Below the pieces are notes generated by a model. The model was given only the letters and a program-made list of their open reading frames with translations. It was not told the origin of the DNA and did no database searches. Made by a program: the position numbers and the translations under genes. This document shows, one piece after another, positions 3,476-59,715 of a stretch of 63,069 nucleotides of DNA. This stretch comes from Candidatus Omnitrophota bacterium (lineage in GTDB: Bacteria; Omnitrophota; Gorgyraeia; Duberdicusellales; 4484-171). The stretch is from NCBI GenBank assembly GCA_018818105.1, contig JAHISK010000098.1, forward strand, positions 1-63,069, read 5' to 3'. The first letter of the stretch is position 1. The number at the start of each line of letters is the position of its first letter.

Positions 3476-4185
3476 AAGCATCTGCGGTAATAGTATGCGC
3501 TGGTTATGGTCGGCGGTTAGGTAAGATTGATAAGGCGGTGTTAGAGTTAGAAGGAAAACCGCTTTTTTATTACGCTGTTAAAACTTTTGCCGGAATTGAT
3601 GAAATAAAGGAAATAGTTTTAGTTTTACGGAAAAAACATTTAAGGGCGGCTAGAGTTTTAATTCCGCATAGTTATCATAACAAAAAAGTTTTTTTTGTTG
3701 AGGGAGGGGCTCGCCGGCAGGATTCTGTGTGTAAAGGATTAGCCGCGGTAAGTTCATCAGTGGATAATGTGCTTATCCATGATGGGGCCAGACCGTTTAT
3801 CAGTAATAGAGTTATTAAAAATATTTTAAATAAGCTTAAGAAGAGTGAAGCGGTAATCTGTGGCGTTAAAGTTCCTGATACGGTAAAAATAGTAGAAAAA
3901 GGAATTGTTAAAAAAACCGTGGAGAGGGATAACTTATATCTTATCCAAACGCCCCAGGGGTTTAGGCGGCAACTTATTTTAACCGCATATGAACAATTTG
4001 GCGCTAGTAATGTTACTGATGATTCATCTATGTTAGAAAGTTTAGGCTATAAAGTAGAGGTAGTCAAGGGTGATGAGCTTAATATGAAAATAACCTATCC
4101 GCAAGATATTGCGTTAGCAGAGGCGATTATAAAACGGGTCAAGGGTCAGGGGTCAAGGGGCAAGAAAACATTAAATATTATGTAG
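3472..4185 (+). CDS. ispD: 2-C-methyl-D-erythritol 4-phosphate cytidylyltransferase
   Basis: VIVCAGYGRRLG, GGARRQDSV and IHDGARPF motifs. The C-terminal tail RVKGQGSRGKKTLNIM is read from a GGGTCAA repeat, and the TAG stop lies in a TGTAGGG head. Confidence 0.9.
   Translation: MKASAVIVCAGYGRRLGKIDKAVLELEGKPLFYYAVKTFAGIDEIKEIVLVLRKKHLRAARVLIPHSYHNKKVFFVEGGARRQDSVCKGLAAVSSSVDNVLIHDGARPFISNRVIKNILNKLKKSEAVICGVKVPDTVKIVEKGIVKKTVERDNLYLIQTPQGFRRQLILTAYEQFGASNVTDDSSMLESLGYKVEVVKGDELNMKITYPQDIALAEAIIKRVKGQGSRGKKTLNIM
4136..4164 (+). repeat. GGGTCAA-type heptad array (4 units) inside the ispD 3' end
   Basis: GGGTCAA GGGTCAG GGGTCAA GGGGCAA G. Confidence 0.9.
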
Positions 4186-4193
4186 GGGAGGGT

Positions 4194-4269
4194 AGAAATT
4201 TTAAATTTACCAATTAGCATTTATGTAAGAGAAACAATATTTAGTAATTTAAAATGGTAAATGGTGAAT
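4194..4269. repeat. AAATTTACCA / TGGTAAATTT palindromic element, copy 1
   Basis: AGAAATTTTAAATTTACCAATT ... TTATGTAAGAGAAACAATATTTAGTAATTTAAAATGGTAAATGGTGAAT. Homologous to 58367-58510. Confidence 0.8.
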
Positions 4270-4287
4270 GGTGAATGGTGAATTTGA

Positions 4288-4764
4288 ATGAAAAATTATA
4301 AAGTTGGATTAGGGTTTGATGTTCATAAGTTTAGCAAGAAGAAAAAGGAGTTGGTGTTAGGCGGGGCGATAATACCTTTAGCAAGAGGGTTGGAAGCTGT
4401 TTCTGATGGAGATGTTCTTCTTCATGCTGTAACAGACGCTTTATGTGGGGCCGCCGGATTAGGTGATATCGGTGATTATTTTCCTCCTTCAAATAAAGAG
4501 TTGAAAGGTATTGATAGTAAAAAAATAGCAAAGTTCATTTTTAAAAAAATAGTAAATAGATTTGAAATCATAAATATGGATATAACGATTATTGCTGATA
4601 AACCGCCGTTAGTTTTTCATAAAAAGGAAATCATGAAATCGTTGATAAACATATTCTATATATCAGCGATTAATTTAAAGATAAAGTCTAAAGAAGGATT
4701 GAATGTTTTAGGGGGCAAAGACGCTATTTCGTGTTTAGCCATGGTGTTGGTGAAACAAATATGA
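4288..4764 (+). CDS. ispF: 2-C-methyl-D-erythritol 2,4-cyclodiphosphate synthase
   Basis: GLGFDVHKF, SDGDVLLHA and GDIGDYFP motifs. Confidence 0.92.
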   Translation: MKNYKVGLGFDVHKFSKKKKELVLGGAIIPLARGLEAVSDGDVLLHAVTDALCGAAGLGDIGDYFPPSNKELKGIDSKKIAKFIFKKIVNRFEIINMDITIIADKPPLVFHKKEIMKSLINIFYISAINLKIKSKEGLNVLGGKDAISCLAMVLVKQI

Positions 4765-4799
4765 ATAGCGTATGGCGGATAGCGTTTAGCGTATAGAGA
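4765..4799 (+). repeat. ATAGCGT heptad array (5 units)
   Basis: ATAGCGT ATGGCGG ATAGCGT TTAGCGT ATAGAGA. Confidence 0.85.
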
Positions 4800-8755: not shown

Positions 8756-8761
8756 TTAAAT

Positions 8762-8840
8762 AGATTGAAGATGGGAGATGACAGATGGCAGATGAAATAT
8801 TCTTTATCTCCAATCTCCAATCTGCAATCCGCAATCTATT
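8762..8840. repeat. Inverted pair of heptad arrays
   Basis: AGATTGA AGATGGG AGATGAC AGATGGC AGATGAA ... ATCTCCA ATCTCCA ATCTGCA ATCCGCA ATCTATT. Confidence 0.85.
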
Positions 8841-8843
8841 AAT

Positions 8844-15247: not shown

Positions 15248-15922
15248 ATGAATTTATTAGCAATTGATACTACTACCGATAATGTTTCCTTAAGTATAAT
15301 GAAGGAAGATAAAATTATCGTGGATTTTAACCGCAGGATTAGATTTGGTGCTTCTAAGGTTATGCCGTTAATAGAAAAACTTATTAAAAAAGCGTCATTA
15401 GATTTAAAAAAGATTGATGCTTTTGTTATTGGCGCGGGGCCTGGGTCTTTTACGGGGTTACGGATTTCTTTTAGTATTGTTAAGGGGTTTGGCTTGGCGT
15501 TGAACAAACCCATAATCAAGATAGGTAGTTTTTATTCGTTGGCGTATCCTTTTATTGGGGGCAAGCATAGGAATATAGCTGTTGTTTCTGATGCTCGGCG
15601 TCAGTTGATATACACAGCGTCTTTTAAAATAAACAAAAATAGTTTTAAAATGGAAGGCAAAGAGAAATTGATAAAATTAGAAGATTTTGTTAAGGGTAAG
15701 AAAGACTGCCTTTTTATTACCCATGATAAAGAGTTAAGAACGAAAGTGTTAAGTTTATATCCAGATATATCTTTCTATAATAAAGATGTTTGGCCCAAAT
15801 CGGCGTATTTACTGGAATTAGCAAAGAGTTATTATATTAAGGAGAAATTCACTTCCGTAAATAAGCTGGAGCCGTTATATTTACATCCTAAGACGTGCCA
15901 GATAAGAATGAATAGTGTTTAG
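15248..15922 (+). CDS. tsaB: tRNA t6A biosynthesis protein TsaB
   Basis: LAIDTTTD and GPGSFTGLRI. Adjacent to tsaE. Confidence 0.8.
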   Translation: MNLLAIDTTTDNVSLSIMKEDKIIVDFNRRIRFGASKVMPLIEKLIKKASLDLKKIDAFVIGAGPGSFTGLRISFSIVKGFGLALNKPIIKIGSFYSLAYPFIGGKHRNIAVVSDARRQLIYTASFKINKNSFKMEGKEKLIKLEDFVKGKKDCLFITHDKELRTKVLSLYPDISFYNKDVWPKSAYLLELAKSYYIKEKFTSVNKLEPLYLHPKTCQIRMNSV

Positions 15923-16017
15923 TTGTTAGTATATAGTATTTAGTGGAGAGGATATAGAAAAAATTTATTTGAAAATTTAAAATGGTAATTGGTAAATGGT
16001 AAATTTAAAATGGAAAA
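15913..16017 (+). repeat. 15 phase-locked heptads spanning the tsaB stop to the alr start
   Basis: TAGTGTT TAGTTGT TAGTATA TAGTATT TAGTGGA ... TGGTAAT TGGTAAA TGGTAAA TTTAAAA TGGAAAA. Confidence 0.85.
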
Positions 16018-17128
16018 GATGTATAGACCATTATTTATTGAAGTAGATTTAGGGGCGTTGAAGCGAAACGCTCGTAAGGTTAAGAATTACCTTGGCGCGG
16101 ATACGGGAATGATTGCCGTTATTAAGCAGGCTGCTTACGGCCATGGGTTAGTACCTGTTGCGCAAGCTCTATCTGATGAAGGCGTTGATTTTTTTGGCGT
16201 TGGCAGTATTGAGGAAGCGGTTGAGTTAAGAAATAATGGTATTAAGAATTCTATTTTTGTTCTTACGACGGTATTGCCTGAGTTTGCTGACTTATTTATT
16301 GAACATAACATAGTTCCTACAATTACGGATATTTCCTTTGCTAAAAAATTAAGTAAGGCGGCAGTAAAGCGAAATGTTAAAGTTAGCGCGCATATTAAGA
16401 TTGATACGGGAATGGGGCGGCTGGGTGCTTATTCCAAAGACGCCTATAAATTTATTGATGGAGTAAAAAGGTTGGATAATCTTTGTTTAGATGGGTTATA
16501 TACTCATTTTCCTGTTGCTGATAGTGATCCTGAGTTTACGCGCAAGCAGATAGATATTTTTAATAAGGTCATAACCCAGTTAAAAAATGATAATATTAGG
16601 TTTAATTATTATCATTGCGCTAACAGCGCGGCGATAGCTAATTATAAAGACTCTCATTTTAATATGGCTAGGCCCGGGATTATTCTTTATGGGATAAACC
16701 CGTCGGTAAATAAAGATTTAGACGTTGAGCCGGTGTTATCGTTAAAATCCAAAGTTGTTTTTGTTAAAAAAATTGATAAAGGGATGAGCGTTAGTTATGG
16801 CCGTACCTTTACCGCTGATAAATCTACCTACATAGCTACTGTGGCTGTCGGATACGCTGATGGCTACCCTTTAGCGTTATCTAATAACGCTAAAGTCATC
16901 ATAAAAGGAGAAGCTTTTAAGTTGGTGGGTAGAGTTTGTATGGATCATATTATGGTGGATATTGGTGATAGAAATGATATTAGTATAGGGGATGAGGTTA
17001 CTTTAATCGGCAAAGAAGCTGATAGTAGTGTTAGCGCTGTTGATTTAGCTGACTGGGCCAAAACCATTCCCTACGAAATCTTAAGCCGCCTTTCTCTAAA
17101 AATCCCTAGAATGTATATGATAAAATAA
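15989..17128 (+). CDS. alr: Alanine racemase
   Basis: PLP-Lys motif AVIKQAAYGHG, YTHF, VCMDHIMVD. The real start is probably ATG 16010 or 16019, because TTG 15989 lies inside a heptad array. Confidence 0.93.
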   Translation: MVNGKFKMEKMYRPLFIEVDLGALKRNARKVKNYLGADTGMIAVIKQAAYGHGLVPVAQALSDEGVDFFGVGSIEEAVELRNNGIKNSIFVLTTVLPEFADLFIEHNIVPTITDISFAKKLSKAAVKRNVKVSAHIKIDTGMGRLGAYSKDAYKFIDGVKRLDNLCLDGLYTHFPVADSDPEFTRKQIDIFNKVITQLKNDNIRFNYYHCANSAAIANYKDSHFNMARPGIILYGINPSVNKDLDVEPVLSLKSKVVFVKKIDKGMSVSYGRTFTADKSTYIATVAVGYADGYPLALSNNAKVIIKGEAFKLVGRVCMDHIMVDIGDRNDISIGDEVTLIGKEADSSVSAVDLADWAKTIPYEILSRLSLKIPRMYMIK

Positions 17129-23599: not shown

Positions 23600-23600
23600 A

Positions 23601-23635
23601 TAGTATTTAGTCGTTAGTATATAGTATTTAGTGAA
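23601..23635 (+). repeat. TAGTNNN heptad array (5 units) after gspE
   Basis: TAGTATT TAGTCGT TAGTATA TAGTATT TAGTGAA. Same word as at 15913 and 40961. Confidence 0.85.
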
Positions 23636-25521: not shown

Positions 25522-25529
25522 TAGAGAAA

Positions 25530-25551
25530 GGGTCAAGGGTCAAGGGTCAAG
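25530..25551 (+). repeat. GGGTCAA heptad array (3 units)
   Basis: GGGTCAA x3, followed 14 nt later by a GTAG hairpin. Confidence 0.9.
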
Positions 25552-25565
25552 AAAATTTAAAATAT

Positions 25566-25591
25566 GTAGGGGAGGGTTTGTAACCCTCCCG
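25566..25591 (+). repeat. GTAG-headed hairpin
   Basis: GTAGGGGAGGGTTTGTAACCCTCCCG, identical to 47727-47752. Confidence 0.85.
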
Positions 25592-25641
25592 TTATAAAGA
25601 TTATGGGGGGGTATTGCGTTCCGCGATACGATATAAAGAGA

Positions 25642-39905: not shown

Positions 39906-40970
39906 ATGGTTAATAAAAATAAGATAAATGAAAAAGTTGCTGTCGCCTTAAGCGGCGGAGTGGATTCAAGTTTTGCGGCTTATCTTTTAAAAAAGAAAGG
40001 ATATCAGGTTGAAGGGTTTACTTTTTTGCTTTGTTCCCAAGATGGGAGATGTTTAGGTGATCAAGGGTTGATTCAAGCGCAAAAGGTATGTGATAAATTA
40101 AAAATTCCCCACCATATTTTAGATTTTAAAAAACTATTCAGGAAGCAAATCATAGATGATTTTTTGCGGCATTATTCGGTAGGGTTAACGCCTAATCCTT
40201 GTGTTCTTTGTAATGCTTTGATTAAGTTTGGGTATTTTTTTGAGCATATTGATTCCCGTGGTTTTAAATATCTAGCTACAGGGCATTATGTAGGATTAAA
40301 AAGGATAAAAGGAAAAATTTTTCTCAAAGTAGCTAAAGACGAGAAGAAATCTCAGGAGTATTTTCTTTCTTTAATCTCTCCGTCAATTTTAAACCGTCTG
40401 ATATTCCCACTCGCTAATTATACAAAAGACCAAGTGCTGGCAGAAGTTGTTAAACTCGATATTCTTTTTCATGATAGAGGGGAAAGCCAGGATATTTGTT
40501 TTATAAACGGTCAGGCGTATTCTCAATTTATTAAAGAGAACGTTTTTTCTCCCGAGAAGTATAAAGGGAATATATGTCATGTTAACGGTAAAATTTTAGG
40601 CACGCATGAAGGAATTTATAATTTTACTTACGGACAGCGTTCAGGGTTGGGCGTTGCCTGGAGGCAACCCCTTTATGTTATCTCTATTGAGGAGGAAACT
40701 AAGACGGTATTTGTGGGGGAGAAGGAATATTTATATAAAAAAGAGTTTACGGTTAATGACCTTAATTGGTTTGATGAGATTACAAAATATAAGAAAATAG
40801 AAGTAAAGATAAGATATAATACGCCATCGTTAAAATGCAAGGTCCAAGTAATGGGCAAAGAAGTTAAAGTTTCGCTTGATGATAAAGTTCAGGCAATAAC
40901 TCCTGGTCAGATTGCTGCCTTTTACAGCGGCGATATTTTGTTGGGAGGGGGAATAATAAATAGTTGCTAG
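39906..40970 (+). CDS. mnmA: tRNA-specific 2-thiouridylase
   Basis: PP-loop ALSGGVDSS, PNPCVLCN, ATGHY. The TAG stop is heptad 2 of a repeat array. Confidence 0.92.
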   Translation: MVNKNKINEKVAVALSGGVDSSFAAYLLKKKGYQVEGFTFLLCSQDGRCLGDQGLIQAQKVCDKLKIPHHILDFKKLFRKQIIDDFLRHYSVGLTPNPCVLCNALIKFGYFFEHIDSRGFKYLATGHYVGLKRIKGKIFLKVAKDEKKSQEYFLSLISPSILNRLIFPLANYTKDQVLAEVVKLDILFHDRGESQDICFINGQAYSQFIKENVFSPEKYKGNICHVNGKILGTHEGIYNFTYGQRSGLGVAWRQPLYVISIEEETKTVFVGEKEYLYKKEFTVNDLNWFDEITKYKKIEVKIRYNTPSLKCKVQVMGKEVKVSLDDKVQAITPGQIAAFYSGDILLGGGIINSC

Positions 40971-41107
40971 TCGTTAGTGAATAGTATTTAGTCGTTAGTA
41001 TATAGTATTTAGTAAGAAGATAGAAGACGGAAGATTGGAGAAGGAACATGGGTCAAGGGTCAGGGGGCAAGGGGCAAGGAAGAATAAGAATAAAGAATTA
41101 TGTAGGG
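40961..41107 (+). repeat. 21 consecutive phase-locked heptads (TAGTNNN x8, AAGANNG-type, GTCAAGG/GGCAAGG x4, AAGAATA x3, TGTAGGG)
   Basis: Parsed by hand with no indel. See findings. Confidence 0.9.
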
Positions 41108-41126
41108 ACAGGTCGTGACCTGTCCG
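41102..41126 (+). repeat. GTAG-headed hairpin
   Basis: GTAGGGACAGGTCGTGACCTGTCCG. Confidence 0.8.
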
Positions 41127-41143
41127 TTGAAAGATAAAAAAAT

Positions 41144-41935
41144 ATGAAAAAATTCAATCAATTAAAAAAGTTCCTCGCTAATTTAGAAAGCGCGGTTGTC
41201 GCGTTTTCCGGAGGCGTTGATAGTGGCCTTCTCATAAAGGCGGCTTATGATGTTTTAGGTAAAAAGGCTGTTGCTGTTACAGCTTCATCGATAATCCATT
41301 CTCGTCAGGATTTAGAGGCAGCTAAGGTTATTTGTAAAAATATCGGTATAAAGCATATAGTAACTCAAACCGATGAGTTGAGTAATCTTAAGTTTAGACG
41401 GAATTGTTGTGATAGGTGTTATTGGTGTAAGCGTAATCTGATTTTGAAATTAAAAGATATCGCTGACAAGACTCAGATTAAATATATTTTAGACGGAACA
41501 AATTATGATGATAAAAATGATGTGCGTCCCGGTATTAGGGCTAATAAAGAATTGGGCGTGATTAGTCCATTATCCCAATGTAGATTCGGCAAGGAAGATA
41601 TTATTGAACTAGCGAAATATTTGCGGTTATCTTTTTGGGATAAACCTAAAGGGACATGTTTTTCTTCTCGAATACCTTTTGGAGAGGAAATAACTATTGA
41701 TAGAATCAAGAGGGTTATTAGTGCTGAAGATATTTTGAAGGATATTTTAGGTGGAGGCTGTATCGTTCGGGCAAGGGACCATAATGATATCTTGCGTATT
41801 GAATTAGGAAATAGGGAAGGGACTAAACTAAAAAAATCTGATATAAATAGAGTAATGTTTAAACTTAAAAAATTAGGATATAAATACATAACGGTTGATT
41901 TAGAAGGATATGTTTCTGCGGGGGAGGTTAGATAA
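41144..41935 (+). CDS. larE: LarE-like PP-loop ATP-dependent sulfur transferase
   Basis: PP-loop AFSGGVDSG, GTCFSSRIPFG, extra Cys cluster NCCDRCYWC. Confidence 0.7.
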   Translation: MKKFNQLKKFLANLESAVVAFSGGVDSGLLIKAAYDVLGKKAVAVTASSIIHSRQDLEAAKVICKNIGIKHIVTQTDELSNLKFRRNCCDRCYWCKRNLILKLKDIADKTQIKYILDGTNYDDKNDVRPGIRANKELGVISPLSQCRFGKEDIIELAKYLRLSFWDKPKGTCFSSRIPFGEEITIDRIKRVISAEDILKDILGGGCIVRARDHNDILRIELGNREGTKLKKSDINRVMFKLKKLGYKYITVDLEGYVSAGEVR

Positions 41936-41996: not shown

Positions 41997-42716
41997 ATGA
42001 AAGCTATTCCGATTCGAGAGTATCAAAATACAGTTTTAAAAGCGCTTTCGGGGAAAATAAGTGATTTTTATCTTGCCGGAGGGACTGCTCTTTCACTGTT
42101 TTATTTCCAGCATAGGGAGTCGATAGATTTAGACTTTTTTTCTCCGAGTTTTTCCTACAATAGAGTAGTTGAAATTACTAATAATTTGCATGAGGTTTTA
42201 AAAAAAACTGTAAAGCTTATTGCTCAGAGTTGGGAAGATAATAAATCTAATATAATGGTTTATAATGTGTGTTTTACCGAAAATGGTGTATTGAAACTTG
42301 ATTTTGTGCAAGATGTATTTCCTTTAATAAAGGAAACAAAAAATGTGGAAGGAATAAAAGTTCTTTCTTTAGAAGATATTTATATAAGAAAGATTTATGC
42401 TATTATTGGTATATTGCCTGCTTTAGATATGATAGGACGTAAGTCTTTTTTGGGGGGAAGAGCGGAAGCTAAAGATTTTTATGATCTTTACTTTTTATCA
42501 CATACATTTATGCCGCTTTCTGTGTTTGTTGAAAAATATTCTGATTTATCCGTGAAGGAAGGATTGATTAACTGGTTTCGAAAATATGATAGGATGAATA
42601 TAATGGATGGGGTATTACGTATGAAAGTAAATAAAAAAATGAATTATAAAAATATGGAAAATCATTTTTTGAATGAAATTAATAAAATTGTTGAAAAAGA
42701 AATAGAAGGGATATGA
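41997..42716 (+). CDS. AbiEii/AbiGii-family nucleotidyltransferase (type IV toxin-like)
   Basis: YLAGGTALSLFYFQHRESIDLDFF NTase signature, about 240 aa. Confidence 0.7.
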   Translation: MKAIPIREYQNTVLKALSGKISDFYLAGGTALSLFYFQHRESIDLDFFSPSFSYNRVVEITNNLHEVLKKTVKLIAQSWEDNKSNIMVYNVCFTENGVLKLDFVQDVFPLIKETKNVEGIKVLSLEDIYIRKIYAIIGILPALDMIGRKSFLGGRAEAKDFYDLYFLSHTFMPLSVFVEKYSDLSVKEGLINWFRKYDRMNIMDGVLRMKVNKKMNYKNMENHFLNEINKIVEKEIEGI

Positions 42717-43291
42717 ATAAAAATTGGTTGTGGGATGTGGAATTAACAGAATCTAGAGCAAAAAAAATATTAAAAGATACAAAGCATAAGGATTTTTTTG
42801 TTGTTGTTTCATTGCTTTTATCTCGGAATAATCAGGCTAAAGATATATTTAAGGAATATTTAGATCCTTTAATATTTTGTAATTATTGGGCGCGAATTAA
42901 GAAACGAATGCGTCAGGATAGATGGAATACCTCTAGAATTAATTTTTGGCAGACAATATTTGATAAATTAAAAGATAGATATCACTCGCGAGGAATTATT
43001 TTAAGAAAAACAGAAAAAATAAGTAGAGATAAGTTATGTAGGGATGTAGGCGATAAAATACGGAGCTTACGGCAGGAAAAAAATTTTTCTCAGAAAGAAT
43101 TTGCTGATAAATTAGGTATTTCACAGCAGCTAATTTCTAGGATTGAAAAAGGTCAGGAAAATGTTTCTTTGGTTACGTTAAAAAATCTTGTAAGGGCGTT
43201 AGGTAGAAAGGTAAGTATTAATTTTTTAAAGACATCCTATAAAGATCAGGATGTCTTGATTTCACAGATTGGGGATAGATTACATAGATGA
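42713..43291 (+). CDS. XRE-family HTH protein with unknown N-terminal domain
   Basis: C-terminal FSQKEFADKLGISQQLISRIEKGQENVSLVTLKNL. ATGA overlap with the upstream gene. Confidence 0.75.
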   Translation: MNKNWLWDVELTESRAKKILKDTKHKDFFVVVSLLLSRNNQAKDIFKEYLDPLIFCNYWARIKKRMRQDRWNTSRINFWQTIFDKLKDRYHSRGIILRKTEKISRDKLCRDVGDKIRSLRQEKNFSQKEFADKLGISQQLISRIEKGQENVSLVTLKNLVRALGRKVSINFLKTSYKDQDVLISQIGDRLHR

Positions 43292-47058: not shown

Positions 47059-47712
47059 ATGAATAATTTAATTGTATTTGATTCAATACCGATTTCTGTG
47101 CCAAAGGATAGAGTGTATAAGCGGCTGGGGTATCAGCGGGATAAAACGCGTCTTTCTTCTCGACAAAGAATTGAAATTGAACAGTATATTCAAGATTCGC
47201 TTAAGTTTATTGATTTGAAAGGAGTCGCGAAAAGGATCGTTATAAAAGAAAAGAATAATTTTGAAATTATTTTTGCCCAAGACAGTACTTTTGAAAGTAA
47301 GCATTTAGCGGCATTACTTAAAGACTGCTGTGAAGTTATTTTTATGGGAGTTACTGCGAGCAAGGAGATTGTTCAGCAGATACAAATGAATTCTTCCCAG
47401 GGTGATTTGACTAAAGCGGTAGTTTTTGACGCTGTGGCTAGTGAGATGACAGACGTATCTTTAGATTGGATTATGAATTATATGAATCAGCAGCTATGTC
47501 GGGAAAATAAAACGATTACAAGACGAAGATTTTCTCCCGGATATAGCGACTTCATTTTAGAAAATCAGAGAGTATTGTATAGCGCTCTTAAATTAGATAA
47601 GTTAGGAGTTACGATAACTAGCGATTGTATTCTTGTTCCTGAGAAATCAGTTATTGCGGTGGCGGGAATACTCGAAAGAGTCAAGGGTCAAGGAACAAGG
47701 GTCAAGGAATAG
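47059..47712 (+). CDS. Stand-alone methionine synthase reactivation (AdoMet-binding) domain protein
   Basis: RRFSPGYSDF...LVPEKSVIAVAGI resembles the MetH activation domain. The tail RVKGQGTRVKE is read from a GGGTCAA repeat. Confidence 0.7.
   Translation: MNNLIVFDSIPISVPKDRVYKRLGYQRDKTRLSSRQRIEIEQYIQDSLKFIDLKGVAKRIVIKEKNNFEIIFAQDSTFESKHLAALLKDCCEVIFMGVTASKEIVQQIQMNSSQGDLTKAVVFDAVASEMTDVSLDWIMNYMNQQLCRENKTITRRRFSPGYSDFILENQRVLYSALKLDKLGVTITSDCILVPEKSVIAVAGILERVKGQGTRVKE
47680..47707 (+). repeat. GTCAAGG-type heptad array inside the 3' end of ORF 47059..47712
   Basis: GTCAAGG GTCAAGG AACAAGG GTCAAGG. Confidence 0.9.
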
Positions 47713-47726
47713 AATATATAAATTTT

Positions 47727-47752
47727 GTAGGGGAGGGTTTGTAACCCTCCCG
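47727..47752 (+). repeat. GTAG-headed hairpin
   Basis: GTAGGGGAGGGTTTGTAACCCTCCCG. Confidence 0.85.
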
Positions 47753-50152: not shown

Positions 50153-50181
50153 TGATAGAAATATTTGTTGTATCATCACTG
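50147..50181 (+). terminator. Hairpin overlapping the metH stop codon
   Basis: CAGTGATGATA - 13 nt - TATCATCACTG, then TAAAATTTT. Confidence 0.55.
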
Positions 50182-50210
50182 TAAAATTTTCTGTATAGCT
50201 TTAAAATAAA

Positions 50211-50219
50211 TGGTATAAT
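50211..50219 (+). promoter_or_regulatory. Extended -10 (TGGTATAAT) 6 nt upstream of the DUF4258-like ATG
   Basis: TGnTATAAT ends at 50219 and the ATG is at 50226, which would give a leaderless mRNA. Confidence 0.45.
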
Positions 50220-50225
50220 GACGAT

Positions 50226-50468
50226 ATGCGGCAATATAATTCAACGCAGTACTTTGAGAAAGAAGTGTTGAAAAAGCGTCCTTATTTAACAAAAGAAATG
50301 TGTATTAAGGTTATCGAGGATCCTTTAAAGATAGAAAAACAAGAAAATAATCGTTTTCGTTTTTGGAGTAAAATTGAAGAATTAGATGGTAAAGTATTAC
50401 GTGTTGTGACATTAACGGATAAAGTTACTATTCATAACGCGTTTTTAGACAGGAGGGTTAGACTATGA
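50226..50468 (+). CDS. DUF4258-like small toxin candidate
   Basis: 80 aa, 4-nt overlap with a DUF2283-like partner. Family call is by eye only. Confidence 0.5.
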   Translation: MRQYNSTQYFEKEVLKKRPYLTKEMCIKVIEDPLKIEKQENNRFRFWSKIEELDGKVLRVVTLTDKVTIHNAFLDRRVRL

Positions 50469-50680
50469 TTTTGAATTATTATTCAGAAACAGATTCTTTG
50501 TATATTAATTTTTCCTCTAGAACAAGTGTTGAAACTCAGGAGATTTCACCAGGGATTAATCTTGATTATGATAGTAAAGGTGAATTGATCGGTATAGATA
50601 TTGATAATGCTAGCAAGAAACTTGATTTGAAAGATTTAACACTTAATCATATCCCCGCTAAAGTTCATATTCTCGCATAG
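50465..50680 (+). CDS. DUF2283-like small protein (antitoxin candidate)
   Basis: YYSETDSLYINF...DYDSKGELIGIDIDNASK pattern. Confidence 0.6.
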   Translation: MILNYYSETDSLYINFSSRTSVETQEISPGINLDYDSKGELIGIDIDNASKKLDLKDLTLNHIPAKVHILA

Positions 50681-50706
50681 TAAAATAGCAGATGGAATAA
50701 TAAAGG

Positions 50707-50844
50707 ATGTATCAAAGATTAGAAAACGAAGAACGAAAAGAATTGTCTGAGGTATCTGGTTTTTTGGATAGAGACGCTGTTTTGAGGAAGATATGGGATA
50801 ATGATAAAGATTCAGCATACGAAGAAGAATGGGAGAGGAGGTAA
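50707..50844 (+). CDS. Unlisted 45-aa ORF (MYQRLENEERKELSEVSGFLDRDAVLRKIWDNDKDSAYEEEWERR)
   Basis: Too short for the ORF track. Its stop lies 3 nt before GTG 50847, and GGAGAGGAGG within its last codons would serve as RBS for the next ORF. Confidence 0.35.
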   Translation: MYQRLENEERKELSEVSGFLDRDAVLRKIWDNDKDSAYEEEWERR

Positions 50845-50846
50845 AC

Positions 50847-51116
50847 GTGAAAAAAAAGGGAATTGCTAAATTGGTCAGTAACATAGCAAAAGTGTTTACT
50901 AAAAAGAAATGTGAAAGCAAAAGTAGTGAAGGCAAATATAAGTGTAATATTTGCGGACGCATGATTAGCGAACGTAAAGCGTTGATTCACGTTAAAGCTG
51001 AAGAGTATATCATGAACCTTATCAAAAAAGACCATCCTCAGTGGAATAGCGATGATCCTTCCTGCCACGTGTGTATTGACTATTACCGTAAATTAGTAAA
51101 AGACGGAAAGATTTGA
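50847..51116 (+). CDS. Small Zn-ribbon-like protein
   Basis: CNIC...CHVC pairs. GTG 50847 sits 6 nt after GGAGAGGAGG. The track start is ATG 50829. Confidence 0.45.
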   Translation: MKKKGIAKLVSNIAKVFTKKKCESKSSEGKYKCNICGRMISERKALIHVKAEEYIMNLIKKDHPQWNSDDPSCHVCIDYYRKLVKDGKI

Positions 51117-51118
51117 TT

Positions 51119-51176
51119 GTAGGGACAGGGCTTGTGACCGAAGGGAATTCCGAGTATGTTCGAGGGGTCCTGTCCG
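51119..51176 (+). repeat. GTAG-headed hairpin with enlarged loop
   Basis: GTAGGGACAGG ... about 35 nt ... CCTGTCCG. Confidence 0.65.
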
Positions 51177-51316
51177 TTTGGAGAATGTAAAAAAAATTAT
51201 TTGACAAAATGGCGCTGTCTTTTTTCTGCTAGCCGTAAAATTTCATCAATAATAAAACTACAAAAACTAGAAAAACTCTTTATTCAAAAGGAGGAGTGAG
51301 GTATAATATCAAACTT

Positions 51317-57455: not shown

Positions 57456-57881
57456 TTACGGTTTGGATACGGGTTTCCGGAGTTGTTTCTTTTCTGCTTG
57501 TATTTTTTTTAGTTTAAGCATTTTTTCTTTTGATCGTTTTGAGCGTTTACGTTTTTGGCGGCGTATTTTTTCGATACGCTTTTTTTCTTCACTATTTCTT
57601 CCTAAGATAATATTTTCTATTTTCGTAACAAGTATTCTACGGGCAAAAAATCGGTTTAAACTTTGTGATCGTTCTTTTTGGCATTTAACTTCAATTCCCG
57701 TCGGCAGATGTTTTAAGTATACACAACTGGATGTTTTATTTAATTTCTGCCCGCCGTGACCGCTTCCTCGTATAAACTTTTCTTGAATATCAGGCTCTTT
57801 AATGTCTAATTTTTCCATTTTTTCTTGAAGCGTTTTTTCTTTTTTGAGGGTTACACCGTATTTTGAGCTTTTTTGGTTCAT
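57456..57881 (-). CDS. Stand-alone GGQ-domain peptidyl-tRNA hydrolase (ArfB/ICT1-like)
   Basis: SGHGGQKLNKTSSCVYLKHLPTGIEVKCQKERSQSLNR, followed by a very basic C-terminal tail. Confidence 0.75.
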   Translation of the reverse strand: MNQKSSKYGVTLKKEKTLQEKMEKLDIKEPDIQEKFIRGSGHGGQKLNKTSSCVYLKHLPTGIEVKCQKERSQSLNRFFARRILVTKIENIILGRNSEEKKRIEKIRRQKRKRSKRSKEKMLKLKKIQAEKKQLRKPVSKP

Positions 57882-58366: not shown

Positions 58367-58510
58367 GAAATTTTAAATTTACCATTACAAATTTACCATT
58401 TTGAATTGAGGGATAAAAGAAAAGAATCAAATAAAACATGTTAAAATTATTTCTTATGTAAGAGAAACAATATCTAACAATTTAAAATGGTAAATGGTAA
58501 ATTTAAAATG
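58367..58510. repeat. AAATTTACCA / TGGTAAATTT palindromic element, copy 2 (with about 55-nt internal insertion)
   Basis: AGAAATTTTAAATTTACCATT ... TTATGTAAGAGAAACAATATCTAACAATTTAAAATGGTAAATGGTAAAT. Confidence 0.8.
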
Positions 58511-58515
58511 ATAAT

Positions 58516-59715
58516 ATGAGTAGTGAACGGTATATTGTTCACGTTGATATGGACGCGTTTTTTGCTGCTGTTGAACAACGCGATAACCCCAATCTATGTG
58601 GTAAGCCGGTTGTTATAGGTGCCGATCCCAAGGGAGGAAGCGGCCGAGGGGTTGTTTCTACCTGTTCTTATGAAGCAAGAAAGTTTGGCATCCGCTCTGC
58701 TATGCCGATTTCAGTTGCCTACCGAAAGTGTCCCCACGCTGTATATCTGCCGCCGGATATGAACAAGTATCTTTATGTGTCTAGAGAGATTTTTAATATT
58801 TTATACGGGTTTACACCTTGGATTGAACCTATAAGTATCGATGAGGCTTTTCTCGATATAACGGGAAGTGTTCATCTTTTTGGGACGGCGCCGGAGATTG
58901 GTTTATTAATAAAATCAAAAATAAAAAAGGAAACAGGGTTGACGGCATCTGTTGGGCTTGCTCCCATAATGATGGCAGCTAAGATTGCTTCAGATTTGGA
59001 AAAGCCCGATGGATTTGTTGTTGTGACCGCGAAGGATTTGCTGAATTTCTTATGGCCGTTGGATGTAAGCAAAATTTGGGGGTTAGGCAATAAAAGTGTG
59101 GCGCTTTTAAGAAGCTTAGGTGTTAATACTATTGGGGATTTAGCTAGGAGTCCTCAGGAGCATATCTTTCAGTTTTTAGGTAATATGGGGTTACGTTTTT
59201 GGCAGCTGTCAAACGGTATTGATGATAGAAGTGTAAGTCCCCTTCAGAAATCTAAATCTATTAGTCATGAATTGACCTTTGAAGAAGATGTTTCTAGTAA
59301 AGAAAAGATTGAAAGCTCCTTGATGGTATTATGTGAAAAAGTTTCTGGGCGCATGCGCCAAGCAGGCGTAAAAGCCAAGACGATAGGATTGAAAATACGC
59401 TTGGATGATTTTAAAACATATACTAGGGCAATAACATTAAGTCGGCCGACTAATTTTGTTAGTATCATTTTTAAAATAATATCTGAGCTGTTTAATGAAT
59501 TTGATACTCGGAATAAAAGAGTAAGATTAATAGGTGTTAAGGGGTGTAATTTTTCTGGGAATTGCTTTCAGAGGACTTTATTTTATGATAAAATTGATGA
59601 GAAACAAAATCAAATTCATAACGCTATTGATAAAATTAAAAATAAATTTGGTCAAGATTCTATATGTAGAGCATCTGGCGGAATAAAAAAATATTTTAGA
59701 TTAAAGAAAGTATGA
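58516..59715 (+). CDS. dinB: DNA polymerase IV
   Basis: VHVDMDAFFAAVEQRDNP and SIDEAFLDIT Y-family motifs. Confidence 0.93.
   Translation: MSSERYIVHVDMDAFFAAVEQRDNPNLCGKPVVIGADPKGGSGRGVVSTCSYEARKFGIRSAMPISVAYRKCPHAVYLPPDMNKYLYVSREIFNILYGFTPWIEPISIDEAFLDITGSVHLFGTAPEIGLLIKSKIKKETGLTASVGLAPIMMAAKIASDLEKPDGFVVVTAKDLLNFLWPLDVSKIWGLGNKSVALLRSLGVNTIGDLARSPQEHIFQFLGNMGLRFWQLSNGIDDRSVSPLQKSKSISHELTFEEDVSSKEKIESSLMVLCEKVSGRMRQAGVKAKTIGLKIRLDDFKTYTRAITLSRPTNFVSIIFKIISELFNEFDTRNKRVRLIGVKGCNFSGNCFQRTLFYDKIDEKQNQIHNAIDKIKNKFGQDSICRASGGIKKYFRLKKV

What the first reader, a model, noticed from the sequence alone, without database searches (positions are those of the whole stretch)
40961..41107. A 147-nt stretch (last codons of mnmA plus most of the mnmA-larE spacer) parses as 21 consecutive heptads in one unbroken 7-nt register
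Starting in the last codons of mnmA, the sequence reads with no indel as follows.
- TAGTTGC TAGTCGT TAGTGAA TAGTATT TAGTCGT TAGTATA TAGTATT TAGTAAG
- AAGATAG AAGACGG AAGATTG GAGAAGG AACATGG
- GTCAAGG GTCAGGG GGCAAGG GGCAAGG
- AAGAATA AGAATAA AGAATTA
- TGTAGGG

Four different words follow each other and stay in phase. Chance registration of independent arrays would be roughly (1/7)^3. The mnmA TAG stop is the start of heptad 2, and the last heptad is the head of a GTAG hairpin.

This looks like a spacer generated by 7-nt slippage or duplication followed by drift, or a sequence constrained by something that reads a 7-nt period. I know of no described element with this organisation apart from the loose analogy to cyanobacterial STRR heptamer repeats.
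Basis: seen in the sequence. Interest (0 to 1): 0.8.

Follow-up and report, generated by a model that had tools for sequence, protein, structure and literature searches.

The report
Seven-base repeat tract between two genes
This is a real run of seven-base tandem repeats that has expanded between two genes which abut in related bacteria; it belongs to a repeat class already described in other bacteria, is seen here in an uncultured Omnitrophota genome, and its function is still unknown.

Summary
The 7-nt periodicity is real. Lag-7 identity is 0.64 against 0.30±0.04 in dinucleotide shuffles (z 9.2), and the sequence is identical in independent assemblies.

Only about 17 heptads (40961-41079) hold one register. 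The AAGAAT block slips by 1 nt, and the "(1/7)^3" argument is unsound because different words have no intrinsic phase.

The tract is not unique:
- The window (Omnitrophota, 36% GC) holds 15-20 period-7 arrays, against 0-5 for other periods. Almost all lie in spacers, directly after stop codons or before start codons.
- Each word of this spacer recurs elsewhere in the window: TAGTNNN, AAGATGG, and GGGTCAA followed by a GTAG-headed hairpin.

In syntenic relatives mnmA and larE overlap or lie 7 nt apart, yet two of them carry 4-6 heptads exactly at that junction (TAG-type in one, G-rich in the other). The spacer is therefore a lineage-specific expansion of an old junction repeat.

GGGTCAA arrays occur in at least 120 metagenome contigs, including Patescibacteria.

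Heptanucleotide intergenic repeats are already described: STRR, Mrázek 2007, Rehm 2015 (G-quadruplex heptamers after stop codons) and MacGregor 2015. Verdict: a new member of a known kind, with function unresolved.

The parts
39906..40970 (+). mnmA (tRNA 2-thiouridine(34) synthase). The last codons (AGT TGC TAG) are supplied by the first heptads.
   Evidence: NCBIfam NF001138 scores 371 bits against a cut-off of 284, and the model ends at residue 351 of 354. Pfam hits. C-terminal comparison with relatives.
40961..41016 (+). Block A: eight TAGTNNN heptads. TAGT is invariant and NNN varies. It contains a duplicated 21-nt block, and 40981-41013 is identical to 23600-23632.
   Evidence: period 21, 2.7 copies; 33-nt exact repeat, expected 0; TAGTN3TAGTN3TAGT at three loci only, all on the + strand, expected 0.
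41017..41051 (+). Block B: five purine-rich heptads with consensus AAGATGG. The same word forms the array at 8761-8797. It contains Shine-Dalgarno-like GGAG/AAGGA just before the ATG at 41048.
   Evidence: (columns 2 and 4 are A in 11 of 11 units across both loci).
41052..41079 (+). Block C: four G-tract heptads (GTCAAGG GTCAGGG GGCAAGG GGCAAGG). 41050-41074 is a canonical G3+N1-7 x4 quadruplex motif.
   Evidence: only 2 such motifs in 63 kb, both in GGGTCAA arrays, 0.15 expected; the minimum-energy fold with the quadruplex term places a G4 here. (family D4).
41080..41100 (+). Block D: A-rich AAGAAT(A) x3 linker with period 6/7; the register slips by 1 nt. It corresponds to the A-rich linker in the three sister modules.
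   Evidence: period 6, 2.9 copies, with an indel; rotation 0 ranks 5th of 7; alignment of the four modules.
41102..41127 (+). GTAG-headed GC hairpin (stem 41106-41113 / 41118-41125, loop CGUG). It is a REP-like element with no U-tract after it.
   Evidence: -13.8 kcal/mol, z -3.1; about 20 GTAGGG hairpins in the window; not called as an intrinsic terminator.
41048..41137 (+). A 29-codon ORF (MGQGSGGKGQG...VER*) in the same frame as larE, ending 6 nt before the larE ATG. Its ATG aligns with the larE start codon of relative L009. It is most likely a relic of an older larE start, or possibly a relay ORF.
   Evidence: Called as a gene in the ENA record. Junction sequences. The frame relation (96 nt = 32 codons) is read from the sequence.
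41144..41935 (+). larE (ATP-dependent sacrificial sulfur transferase).
   Evidence: NCBIfam TIGR00268 scores 259.7 bits against a cut-off of 150.
15913..15947 (+). Sister TAGTNNN array (5 units). Its second TAG is the stop codon of the tsaB-like gene, and it continues into AATGGTA heptads up to the alr start.
   Evidence: (D3).
23601..23635 (+). Sister TAGTNNN array (5 units) starting 2 nt after the stop codon of the T2SS E-type ATPase gene. It shares the 33-nt exact segment with block A.
   Evidence: (D3).
4132..4193 (+). Sister module: four GGGTCAA-type units, an A-rich linker and TGTAGGG. It is translated as the C-terminal tail of IspD, and the TAG of the GTAG head is the stop codon.
   Evidence: (D4, D17).
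25522..25592 (+). Sister module: GGGTCAA x3, an A-rich linker and a GTAG hairpin, starting 1 nt after a stop codon.
   Evidence: (D4, D15).
47676..47752 (+). Sister module: GGGTCAA-type x4 (encoding the C-terminal tail RVKGQGTRVKE*), an A-rich linker and a GTAG hairpin. The relative L008 has only 3 nt at this junction.

Best explanation
The tract is an intercistronic heptanucleotide simple-sequence-repeat array. It is STRR-like and belongs to the known class of over-represented 7-nt repeats in bacterial spacers. In this Omnitrophota lineage it has expanded at the mnmA stop / larE start junction.

Shown:
- Relatives have the two genes overlapping or 7 nt apart.
- Two relatives already carry 4-6 heptads across the stop and start codons: TAG-N4 units in one, G-rich AAGGGGC-type units in the other.
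- This genome has both kinds, enlarged to about 17 units, followed by an A-rich linker and a GTAG-headed REP-like hairpin.
- The genome as sampled is full of such arrays, drawn from a small vocabulary of words that recur at many gene junctions.

Inferred origin: the array grew by slipped-strand duplication of 7-, 14- and 21-nt blocks seeded on the stop-codon and Shine-Dalgarno/start-codon sequences. It has exchanged sequence with sister arrays by recombination or gene conversion, as the 33-nt identical segment indicates. The hairpin insertion moved the larE start 96 nt downstream.

Inferred function: the spacer is transcribed with the operon and acts, if at all, as RNA.
- The UAGU heptads close all three reading frames behind mnmA.
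- The purine/G-tract part stays open or folds into a G-quadruplex.
- The hairpin acts as a REP-type 3' stabiliser or barrier.
- The net effect is that the tight translational coupling seen in relatives is broken.

A 4-nt core is held constant in each word while the other 3 nt vary, so some constraint acts on the units. What imposes it is unknown.
For: - Periodicity is real and specific to lag 7: region z 9.2; all spacers z 7.6; z 6.9 without this spacer; coding z -2.4.
- There are 15 stringent lag-7 arrays against 0-2 at lags 5-11. Most start 1-17 nt after a stop codon or end within 14 nt of a start codon.
- Higher-order periods of 14 and 21 nt are present.
- Synteny nadA-thi4-mnmA-larE-CBM11 is conserved. 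The mnmA-larE gap is 7 nt in L008 and a 4-nt overlap in L009, and several other spacers are also longer here: 55 vs 3, 177 vs 79 and 240 vs 116 nt.
- Orthologous junction arrays are TAGTCGT TAGATGT TAGGGGT TAGTGGA in L008 and AAAGGTC AAGGGGC ATGAGGC AGGGGGC AAGGGAT in L009. These are two of only three lag-7 arrays detected in 90 kb of relatives (the third lies elsewhere, in L134). Short repeats of period 6-8 also sit at this junction in L134, L132 and L259.
- Word families are dispersed: D3, D4, D15, D17; the 33-nt exact copy; and four modules with the same order of parts.
- Arrays are read as C-terminal tails of IspD and of the 47059 ORF.
- Core constraint: TAGT is invariant in 18 units comprising 9 distinct words. 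That means at least 8 substitutions, all in 3 of 7 columns, and (3/7)^8 is about 0.001 (my calculation).
- The class is documented. Heptamers are the most abundant long simple sequence repeats in many bacteria, and polymerase slippage was proposed as the cause (Mrázek 2007, as summarised in PMC4679880). [quoted passage not shown]
- GGGTCAA arrays occur in at least 120 metagenome contigs. In 102 non-telomere-like contigs there are 68 further lag-7 arrays of other words against 2-16 at other lags, and one such contig is Patescibacteria.
Against: - There is no expression, read-level or strain-variation data. The arrays are identical in the few assemblies available, so ongoing slippage is not demonstrated.
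- The arrays are imperfect (64% lag-7 identity), which makes them poor slippage substrates today.
- Slippage alone explains neither the invariant 4-nt cores nor the reuse of the same words at many loci and in other phyla.
- Relatives sampled over 90 kb show no preference for period 7. A universal polymerase property therefore cannot be the sole cause.
- Every functional statement (frame closure, G4, hairpin role, uncoupling) is inference. Only 2 of the 4 GGGTCAA modules keep four G-tracts.
- About 44% of random heptads at this base composition would contain a stop triplet, so three-frame closure is not in itself significant.
Confidence: 0.65

Rival explanations
1. The heptads are a binding platform. 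An oligomeric single-strand RNA- or DNA-binding protein with a 7-nt footprint per subunit lines up along the arrays and sets the period. Candidates are a cold-shock-domain protein, or a HutP-like ring that reads UAG triplets spaced by 4 nt. The conserved 4-nt cores (TAGT, nAnA..G, GGG.CAA) would be the contacts. The arrays would then form a post-transcriptional code at operon junctions.
For: - Each word has an invariant core and a variable remainder.
- The same few words are reused at many junctions, on the sense strand only.
- The heptad tract is only weakly structured as RNA (z -2.0).
- CspB binds heptamer repeats with one protein per heptamer, as reviewed in PMC4679880.
- HutP recognises UAG-N4-UAG-N4-UAG (my own knowledge, not tested here).
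- Relatives lack the period-7 preference, which suits a lineage-specific reader better than a universal polymerase property.
Against: - No candidate protein was identified. Nothing of the kind appears among the window proteins that were scanned, and the rest of the genome could not be searched.
- At least eight different words would need either several readers or a very tolerant one.
- Nearly all genes in the window are on one strand, so sense-strand bias cannot be separated from replication-strand bias.
Confidence: 0.15
2. The functional core is the G-quadruplex. Block C, with four G-tracts, folds into a G4 in the mRNA or in the non-template DNA strand behind mnmA and modulates termination, RNA stability or larE translation. 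The other heptads are by-products.
For: - 41050-41074 is one of only two canonical G4 motifs in 63 kb, where 0.15 are expected.
- The fold with the quadruplex energy term uses it.
- Rehm 2015 showed that GGGNATC-type heptamers form G4s in vitro, prefer four units and sit after stop codons on the sense strand.
- In metagenome GGGTCAA arrays the commonest G-tract count is 4: 38 arrays, against 33 with 3 and 21 with 5.
Against: - The sister modules at 25528 and 47678 have only 3 and 2 G3 tracts and do not fold as G4.
- Most heptad words in this genome are not G-rich (TAGTATT, AATGGTA, CTAAACA), so G4 cannot explain the period.
- Rehm et al. themselves found no regulatory role.
Confidence: 0.1
3. 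The spacer is an inserted composite mobile element. On this reading a REP/MITE-like unit ([TAG heptads]-[G-rich heptads]-A-rich linker-GTAG hairpin) is copied between gene junctions, and its internal heptads are merely part of the element.
For: - Four modules have the same order of parts.
- A 33-nt exact copy lies 17 kb away.
- There are about 20 GTAG-headed hairpins, some forming REPIN-like inverted doublets.
- The spacer is absent from relatives.
Against: - The modules have no terminal inverted repeats, no target-site duplications and no constant ends, and unit numbers differ in every copy.
- No RAYT or transposase was found among the window proteins scanned.
- The orthologous junctions of two relatives already contain the same kinds of heptads without the hairpin, which favours growth in place.
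- Only 5 of 120 metagenome GGGTCAA arrays are followed by a GTAG hairpin.
Confidence: 0.15
4. The spacer works as a relay ORF. The 29-codon ORF at 41048-41137 has a Shine-Dalgarno-like GGAG/AAGGA in block B, reads through the G-tracts and the hairpin, and stops 6 nt before the larE ATG. Translating it would melt the structure and hand ribosomes to the weakly Shine-Dalgarno-preceded larE start by termination-reinitiation.
For: - The ORF was called by the gene finder in the public record.
- Its ATG aligns with the larE start of relative L009.
- It is in the same frame as larE, its stop is 6 nt before the larE ATG, and no AGGAGG-type Shine-Dalgarno sequence precedes larE, whereas relatives have a clear one before other genes.
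Against: - There is no conservation test, because only one species has this ORF.
- The three sister modules have no equivalent ORF.
- Being in frame has a 1 in 3 chance.
- The ORF is explained equally well as a dead relic of the old larE N-terminus.
Confidence: 0.08
5. The pattern is a chance resemblance or an assembly artefact.
For: Nothing beyond the general tendency of short-read assemblers to mishandle repeats. The Logan contig does break inside the array.
Against: - z is 9.2 against shuffles, and none of 5000 shuffles reaches 0.48.
- The sequence is identical in an independent assembly (NCBI GCA_043811225.1), and the Logan contig agrees over the part it covers.
- Other arrays are identical in a second assembly.
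- The Logan break is what a repeated segment would be expected to cause (the assembler's behaviour is my assumption, not tested).
Confidence: 0.01

Closest known systems
Cyanobacterial STRR (short tandemly repeated repetitive sequences; Calothrix, Nostoc, Anabaena)
   Same: Both have heptanucleotide units in tandem, several word families per genome, many dispersed copies in non-coding spacers, and no known function.
   Different: The phylum differs (Omnitrophota). The words differ: TAGTNNN, AAGATGG, GGGTCAA and AATGGTA rather than CCCCAGT, TTGGTCA and CAACAGT (the STRR words are from my own knowledge). The arrays here are short (3-8 units), degenerate (a 4-nt core plus 3 variable bases), chained into mosaics, and placed at stop and start codons.
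Over-represented heptanucleotide long simple sequence repeats in prokaryotes (Mrázek, Guo & Shah 2007, as summarised in PMC4679880 and PMC4692102)
   Same: The period is specifically 7. The excess lies in intergenic DNA. The distribution is sporadic and lineage-specific, even among close relatives. Slippage is the proposed origin.
   Different: That class was defined on near-perfect repeats, mostly in large, high-GC genomes. Here the genome is 36% GC, the units are imperfect, and the same words recur at many loci.
G-quadruplex-forming GGGNATC / GGGGA(C/T)T heptamer repeats of Xanthomonas and Nostoc (Rehm et al. 2015, PMC4692102)
   Same: Block C is a GGGNCAA heptamer with four G-tracts, on the sense strand, downstream of a stop codon, between co-oriented ORFs. 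Inverted array pairs also occur in this genome.
   Different: The word differs. Block C starts 80 nt after the stop codon rather than within 50 bp. It is only one block of a longer mixed array. Two of the four sister arrays lack four G-tracts. G4 formation was not tested.
TAACTGA direct repeats of marine Beggiatoaceae, cyanobacteria and Bacteroidetes (MacGregor 2015, PMC4679880)
   Same: Both are heptamer direct repeats of 2-6 copies at gene junctions, in one orientation relative to genes. The same word is shared by unrelated phyla. An RNA-binding reader (Csp, S1 or CsrA) was proposed but never found.
   Different: That is one dominant word lying directly upstream of start codons. Here there are many words, and this tract begins at a stop codon. 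The AATGGTR arrays of this genome are the closer positional analogue.
REP / REPIN elements (GTAG-headed extragenic palindromes mobilised by RAYT transposases)
   Same: The hairpin at 41102-41127 has the GTAG head and a GC-rich stem. About 20 copies lie in 63 kb, some as inverted doublets, sited just after genes.
   Different: This applies only to the hairpin, not to the heptads. No RAYT gene was seen in the window. In six genes the TAG of the GTAG head is the stop codon itself.
HutP antiterminator binding site of Bacillus subtilis (UAG-N4-UAG-N4-UAG)
   Same: Block A is exactly UAG-N4 repeated eight times.
   Different: The HutP site lies in a 5' leader next to a terminator and has two sets of three UAG. 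Here the array follows a stop codon and recurs at several unrelated genes. No HutP homologue was sought or found. This is a resemblance recalled from memory, not a tested relation.

Membership tests
STRR (cyanobacterial heptanucleotide repeats) | Tandem repetition of a 7-nt unit | tested here: met
   Lag-7 identity 0.64, z 9.2; TRF reports period 7.
STRR (cyanobacterial heptanucleotide repeats) | Many dispersed arrays of a few word families in non-coding DNA of the same genome | tested here: met
   There are 15-20 lag-7 arrays in 63 kb against 0-5 for other lags, almost all in spacers, with recurrent words. Only one 63-kb contig of the genome was available.
STRR (cyanobacterial heptanucleotide repeats) | Cyanobacterial host and the canonical STRR consensus words | tested here: not met
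   The host is Omnitrophota by the best named MnmA homologues. The words are TAGTNNN, AAGATGG and GGGTCAA.
Heptanucleotide long simple sequence repeats (Mrázek 2007) | Unit of 5-11 nt repeated for longer than expected from the composition of the genome | tested here: met
   None of 5000 shuffles reaches the observed lag-7 identity. TAGTN3TAGTN3TAGT gives 12 matches where 0 are expected.
Heptanucleotide long simple sequence repeats (Mrázek 2007) | Perfect or near-perfect copies | tested here: not met
   The units share a 4-nt core only; TRF reports 76-86% matches and block A has 6 different NNN in 8 units.
G4-forming heptamer repeats (Rehm 2015) | A G3+ tract in each unit, with four consecutive units preferred | tested here: met
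   41050-41074 reads GGG-TCAA-GGG-TCA-GGGGG-CAA-GGGG. This holds for block C only.
G4-forming heptamer repeats (Rehm 2015) | [quoted passage not shown] | tested here: inconclusive
   Block C is on the sense strand between co-oriented genes, but 80 nt after the stop codon and 70 nt before the next start. The sister arrays at 25528, 4136 and 47676 lie at or within gene ends.
G4-forming heptamer repeats (Rehm 2015) | Demonstrated quadruplex formation (K+-dependent CD signature) | not testable with these tools
   There is only an energy-model prediction.
TAACTGA-type start-proximal heptamer repeats (MacGregor 2015) | The unit TAACTGA | tested here: not met
   That word is absent from the tract.
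TAACTGA-type start-proximal heptamer repeats (MacGregor 2015) | The array lies within a few nucleotides upstream of the start codon, replacing the ribosome-binding site | tested here: not met
   The heptads end 44-65 nt before the larE ATG, and a hairpin intervenes.
REP / REPIN | A GTAG head followed by an imperfect GC-rich palindrome, in many copies per genome | tested here: met
   This applies to 41102-41127 only; about 20 such hairpins are in the window.
REP / REPIN | A cognate RAYT (Y1 transposase) gene in the genome | not testable with these tools
   None was found among the window ORFs scanned.
HutP-type RNA site | At least 3 UAG triplets separated by 4-nt spacers | tested here: met
   There are eight consecutive UAG-N4 units.
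HutP-type RNA site | A HutP-family protein encoded by the organism, and the site located in a 5' leader overlapping a terminator | not tested
   No protein search was made. The position here is after a stop codon, which does not fit.
Phase-variable contingency locus (simple sequence repeat) | Unit number varies between strains or reads, and the repeat lies in a promoter or in 5' coding sequence | tested here: not met
   The arrays are identical in the two or three assemblies available. The flanking genes are housekeeping genes. Sampling is thin.

The most novel reading that the evidence does not exclude
The 7-nt period is imposed by a reader, not by the polymerase. On this reading a lineage-specific single-strand nucleic-acid-binding protein with a heptad footprint polymerises along intercistronic RNA, using the invariant 4-nt cores (UAGU, GGG.CAA, AnA..G) as register marks. 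The arrays would then form a modular post-transcriptional code at operon junctions. Part of its vocabulary, such as GGGTCAA, would be shared by Omnitrophota, Patescibacteria and other uncultured phyla.
Probability: 0.12. Interest if true: 0.75.

Novelty: new member of a known kind. Interest (0 to 1): 0.4.

Why it matters
Heptanucleotide repeats have been known in bacteria since 1990 and were shown in 2007 to be the commonest long simple repeat, yet neither the reason for the number seven nor any function has been established.

This locus offers three things:
- A clean natural series at one orthologous gene junction: no repeat, 4-6 units, and about 17 units plus a hairpin.
- Units whose 4-nt core is constrained while 3 nt are free.
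- A vocabulary partly shared with unrelated uncultured phyla.

Together these make it possible to ask concretely whether slippage alone or a heptad-reading factor shapes such spacers.

On the practical side, the arrays extend or truncate annotated proteins (IspD, MnmA, LarE starts) and break short-read assemblies. Annotators of Omnitrophota and CPR genomes should be aware of them.

Tried and rejected
- Known RNA families: Rfam found nothing at gathering threshold in the whole window. At E<=1 in the region there was only a 0.79 chance hit. No tRNA or tmRNA was found.
- Similar DNA in plasmids: none.
- GTDB representative genomes: only MnmA relatives at 44% identity turned up, with no period-7 signal, so they were uninformative.
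- Phase coherence between blocks: tested by rotating the column profiles and rejected as a general property.
- Three-frame stop closure as a selected property: any heptad containing a stop triplet closes all frames after 3 units, and about 44% of random heptads at this composition contain one. The 27:0 sense-strand bias of GGGTCAA arrays inside ORFs is forced for the same reason, because TTGACCC contains TGA. This is not evidence of function.
- RAYT or transposase near the hairpins: none found. The REP-flanked ORF at 57456-57881 is an RF-1-domain (ArfB-like) protein.
- Copy-number variation between assemblies: none seen.
- Same-species contigs among the metagenome hits: none. A tblastn of the window proteins did not place those contigs taxonomically.
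- Strong RNA structure in the heptad tract: weak only (z -2.0).
- The Mrázek 2007 paper itself is not held in the library, so it is cited through two papers that summarise it.
Full report
**What is there**

That ORF is MnmA (NCBIfam NF001138, 371 bits) and the next gene, 41144-41935, is LarE (TIGR00268, 260 bits).

Identity at lag 7 is 0.643 (lag 14: 0.60; lag 21: 0.52), while the other lags give 0.20-0.38. In 5000 dinucleotide-preserving shuffles the mean is 0.30, the sd 0.037 and the maximum 0.47, so z = 9.2. TRF independently reports arrays of period 7, 14 and 21.

The window is ENA contig ERZ27247128 k141_1502180. The same spacer is base-for-base identical in NCBI GCA_043811225.1, and in the Logan assembly of SRR6514274 as far as that contig reaches. 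The Logan contig stops inside the array, within a segment that occurs twice in the genome. That is where a short-k-mer assembler would be expected to break (my inference). Chance and assembly artefact are excluded.

**Limits of the observation**

The register is not unbroken for 21 units. Block D is AAGAAT-AAGAATA-AAGAATT (TRF: period 6 with an indel), so the phase slips by one base at 41080. 'TGTAGGG' is the head of a hairpin, not a repeat unit. About 17 units (40961-41079) share one register.

The '(1/7)^3' argument fails because two different words have no defined relative phase. I compared the column profiles of adjacent blocks at all seven rotations:

| Block pair | Rank of rotation 0 (of 7) |
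|---|---|
| A-B | 2nd |
| B-C | 1st |
| C-D | 5th |
| A-C | worst |

What the sequence does show is gradual change from unit to neighbouring unit. TAGTAAG>AAGATAG and AACATGG>GTCAAGG each share 4 of 7 bases, and there are higher-order duplications. For example, TAGTCGT-TAGTGAA-TAGTATT is followed by TAGTCGT-TAGTATA-TAGTATT, identical at 19 of 21 positions.

**It is a feature of the whole window**

The window has 36% GC, a strong GC skew (+0.27) and nearly all genes on the + strand. The best named MnmA homologues are all Candidatus Omnitrophota.

- 42-nt windows with at least 60% identity: 272 at lag 7, against 0-82 at lags 3-15; the next highest, 82, is at lag 14, the first multiple of 7.
- Stringent census: 15 arrays at lag 7 against 0-2 at lags 5-11.
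- Looser census: 20 arrays against 0-5.
- Spacers as a set exceed shuffles (z 7.6), and still do without the focal spacer (z 6.9). Coding DNA does not (z -2.4).

Most arrays begin 1-17 nt after a stop codon or end within 14 nt of a start codon.

The words recur:

| Word | Positions in the window | Notes |
|---|---|---|
| TAGTNNN | 15913, 23601, 40961 | + strand only, 0 expected; a related TAGCGTN array sits at 4766 |
| AAGATGG | 8761, 41017 | columns 2 and 4 invariant |
| GGGTCAA | 4136, 25528, 41050, 47676 | each followed by an A-rich linker and a TGTAGGG-headed hairpin, in the same order |

A 33-nt segment of block A (40981-41013) is repeated exactly at 23600-23632, so arrays exchange sequence between loci.

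In 18 TAGTNNN units (9 distinct words) TAGT never varies while NNN does. That requires at least 8 substitutions, all in three of seven columns, which by my calculation has probability (3/7)^8, about 0.001. Some constraint therefore acts on the core.

**Comparison with relatives**

Gene order nadA-(nifU)-thi4-mnmA-larE-CBM11 gene is conserved in Omnitrophota contigs whose MnmA is 53-68% identical.

| Relative | MnmA identity | mnmA-larE junction |
|---|---|---|
| L009 (and L010) | 68% | genes overlap by 4 nt |
| L008 (CP070797.1) | 64% | genes 7 nt apart |

Several other spacers are also much shorter in L008 than in the window: 3 vs 55, 79 vs 177 and 116 vs 240 nt.

In 90 kb of relatives there is no preference for period 7: three arrays at lag 7, against eight at lag 8 and six at lag 9. 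Two of those three lag-7 arrays lie exactly at the mnmA-larE junction; the third lies elsewhere, in L134:
- L008 has TAGTCGT TAGATGT TAGGGGT TAGTGGA. It contains the mnmA stop and the larE ATG.
- L009 has AAAGGTC AAGGGGC ATGAGGC AGGGGGC AAGGGAT. It contains the TGA/ATG overlap and shares CAGGGGGCAAGGG with block C.

Other relatives at this junction:
- L134 has CATTGTTA x4 (period 8).
- L132 has a 163-nt spacer with 7-8-nt repeats.
- L259 has a G-rich period-6 repeat.
- L258 and L133 have no repeat there.
- L131 lacks larE at this position.

The junction is thus an old hot spot for short tandem repeats. The window carries both the TAG-type and the G-rich type, greatly enlarged. In the relatives the repeats encode the first 6-8 residues of LarE. 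In the window the ATG that aligns with the L009 start (41048) now opens a 29-codon ORF. That ORF is in the larE frame and stops 6 nt before the present larE ATG. This fits a later insertion of the A-rich linker and hairpin into the old N-terminal region.

Arrays also supply the C-terminal tails of IspD (…RVKGQGSRGKKTLNIM*) and of the 47059 ORF (…RVKGQGTRVKE*).

**Structure**

The only robust RNA structure in the spacer is the hairpin 41106-41125 (-13.8 kcal/mol, z -3.1). It belongs to a family of about 20 GTAGGG-headed GC hairpins. Their stems differ by paired changes and some occur as inverted doublets, which is REP/REPIN-like. No U-tract follows the hairpin, and the terminator scan does not call it.

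The heptad tract itself folds weakly (z -2.0).

Block C is one of only two canonical G-quadruplex motifs in 63 kb, where 0.15 are expected. With the quadruplex energy term the minimum-energy fold uses it. Two of the four sister arrays lack four G-tracts, however.

**Beyond this genome**

None is the same species. Some are TTTAGGG telomere-like contigs, presumably eukaryotic.

In the 102 other contigs (542 kb) there are 68 further period-7 arrays of other words, against 2-16 arrays at periods 5-10. Heptad richness is therefore a property of whole genomes.

One such contig (L110, five different arrays) is Patescibacteria/Microgenomates by its GlyA.

About half of the GGGTCAA arrays in low-GC contigs lie inside sense-strand ORFs as in-frame insertions. 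The complete absence of antisense cases is forced, because TTGACCC brings TGA into every frame.

Only 5 of 120 arrays are followed by a GTAG hairpin, so the array-plus-hairpin module is particular to this lineage.

TAGTNNN x5 arrays are likewise common in IMG/VR contigs.

**Literature**

- Heptanucleotide repeats are the most abundant long simple repeats in many prokaryotes, and a link to the DNA segment held by the polymerase was proposed (Mrázek 2007, summarised in PMC4679880 and PMC4692102).
- Rehm et al. 2015 described GGGNATC-type heptamers in Xanthomonas and Nostoc. They prefer four units, form G4s in vitro, lie within 50 bp after stop codons on the sense strand between co-oriented ORFs, are transcribed, and have no demonstrated role.
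- MacGregor 2015 described TAACTGA repeats before start codons in Beggiatoaceae, cyanobacteria and Bacteroidetes, and proposed Csp, S1 or CsrA readers. CspB binds one heptamer per molecule.
- I found no paper that links such repeats to Omnitrophota or Patescibacteria.

**Conclusion**

The finding is real but not a new kind of element. It is an unusually long, mosaic example of intergenic heptanucleotide repeats, grown in place at a gene junction that carries short repeats in related lineages, and fused to a REP-like hairpin.

Origin by slipped-strand duplication plus exchange between arrays is reasonably supported. Any function is inferred and untested: closing the reading frames, a G-quadruplex, a hairpin barrier, uncoupling of larE from mnmA, or a platform for a heptad-reading protein.

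Three things remain unexplained and keep the finding moderately interesting:
- the invariant 4-nt cores;
- the reuse of a small vocabulary of words;
- the absence of a period-7 preference in relatives.

Noticed in passing
window 4183, 6925, 11336, 27086, 38987, 57410 (and about 14 further sites, e.g. 10390, 25566, 33117, 47727, 53208, 57894): There are about 20 GTAGGG-headed GC hairpins (REP-like) whose stems differ by paired changes. In six genes the TAG of the GTAG head is itself the stop codon, so the hairpin starts at the last codon.
   Followed up: partly
window 10390/10486, 27086/27187, 33117/33215, 53208/53307, 57894/57998: The same hairpin family occurs as inverted doublets about 100 nt apart (REPIN-like), with 88-96% complementary arms. 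No RAYT gene was seen in the window.
   Followed up: partly
window 37487-37546/37594-37653; 56529-56584/56652-56707; 8759-8796/8803-8840; 58368-58393/58479-58504: Heptad arrays come in inverted pairs (e.g. CTAAACA... with TTTAGTG..., AGATGGN... with CCAATCT...). These could form long imperfect hairpins upstream of genes; one pair fills the whole 88-nt spacer 8756-8843.
   Followed up: no
window 4212-4289, 15956-16018, 58445-58515: AATGGTR/AAATTTA heptads lie directly before the start codons of ispF, alr and the gene at 58516. At two of these loci they are preceded by a conserved TTATGTAAGAGAAACAATAT (families D7 and D9).
   Followed up: no
window 4132-4185 and 47676-47712: GGGTCAA arrays are translated as C-terminal tails: IspD ends RVKGQGSRGKKTLNIM* and the 47059 ORF ends RVKGQGTRVKE*, whereas the L008 orthologue of the latter ends differently.
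   Followed up: partly
window 41997-43291: An AbiEii toxin plus HTH antitoxin-like pair lies between larE and the CBM11-domain gene. These two genes are adjacent in relatives L008, L009 and L133.
   Followed up: no
L132 8544-10004 and L134 3664-5190: In two relatives the NifU gene next to nadA carries an intein with a LAGLIDADG domain (Pfam PF14890, PF14528). The window's NifU (128 aa) does not.
   Followed up: no
L018, L026, L043 (and L048/L110, L054, L119): In metagenome contigs GGGTCAA arrays sit as in-frame insertions about 800-890 nt into ORFs of roughly 320-590 codons, about 400 in L018, L026 and L043. In L018 and L026 this is next to a ...DFR...KIKK motif that looks like CoaBC. That would suggest a recurrent insertion site in a loop.
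   Followed up: no
L028, L034, L041, L045, L051, L076, L113, L118 and others: About 14 of the contigs hit by the GGGTCAA pattern are dominated by TTTAGGG/CCCTAAA arrays (telomere-like, presumably eukaryotic) in which GGGTCAA appears as a variant unit.
   Followed up: no
window 50153-51295: This is a 1.1-kb stretch with no long + strand ORF. The three short ORFs tested have no Pfam match, and the stretch has no Rfam match.
   Followed up: no
window 57456-57881 (- strand): A lone minus-strand RF-1-domain protein (ArfB-like, a peptidyl-tRNA hydrolase type) is flanked on both sides by GTAG hairpins.
   Followed up: no
window, whole: There is no tRNA, tmRNA or Rfam family in 63 kb. GC skew is +0.15 to +0.37 throughout, and all but a handful of genes are on one strand.
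   Followed up: no
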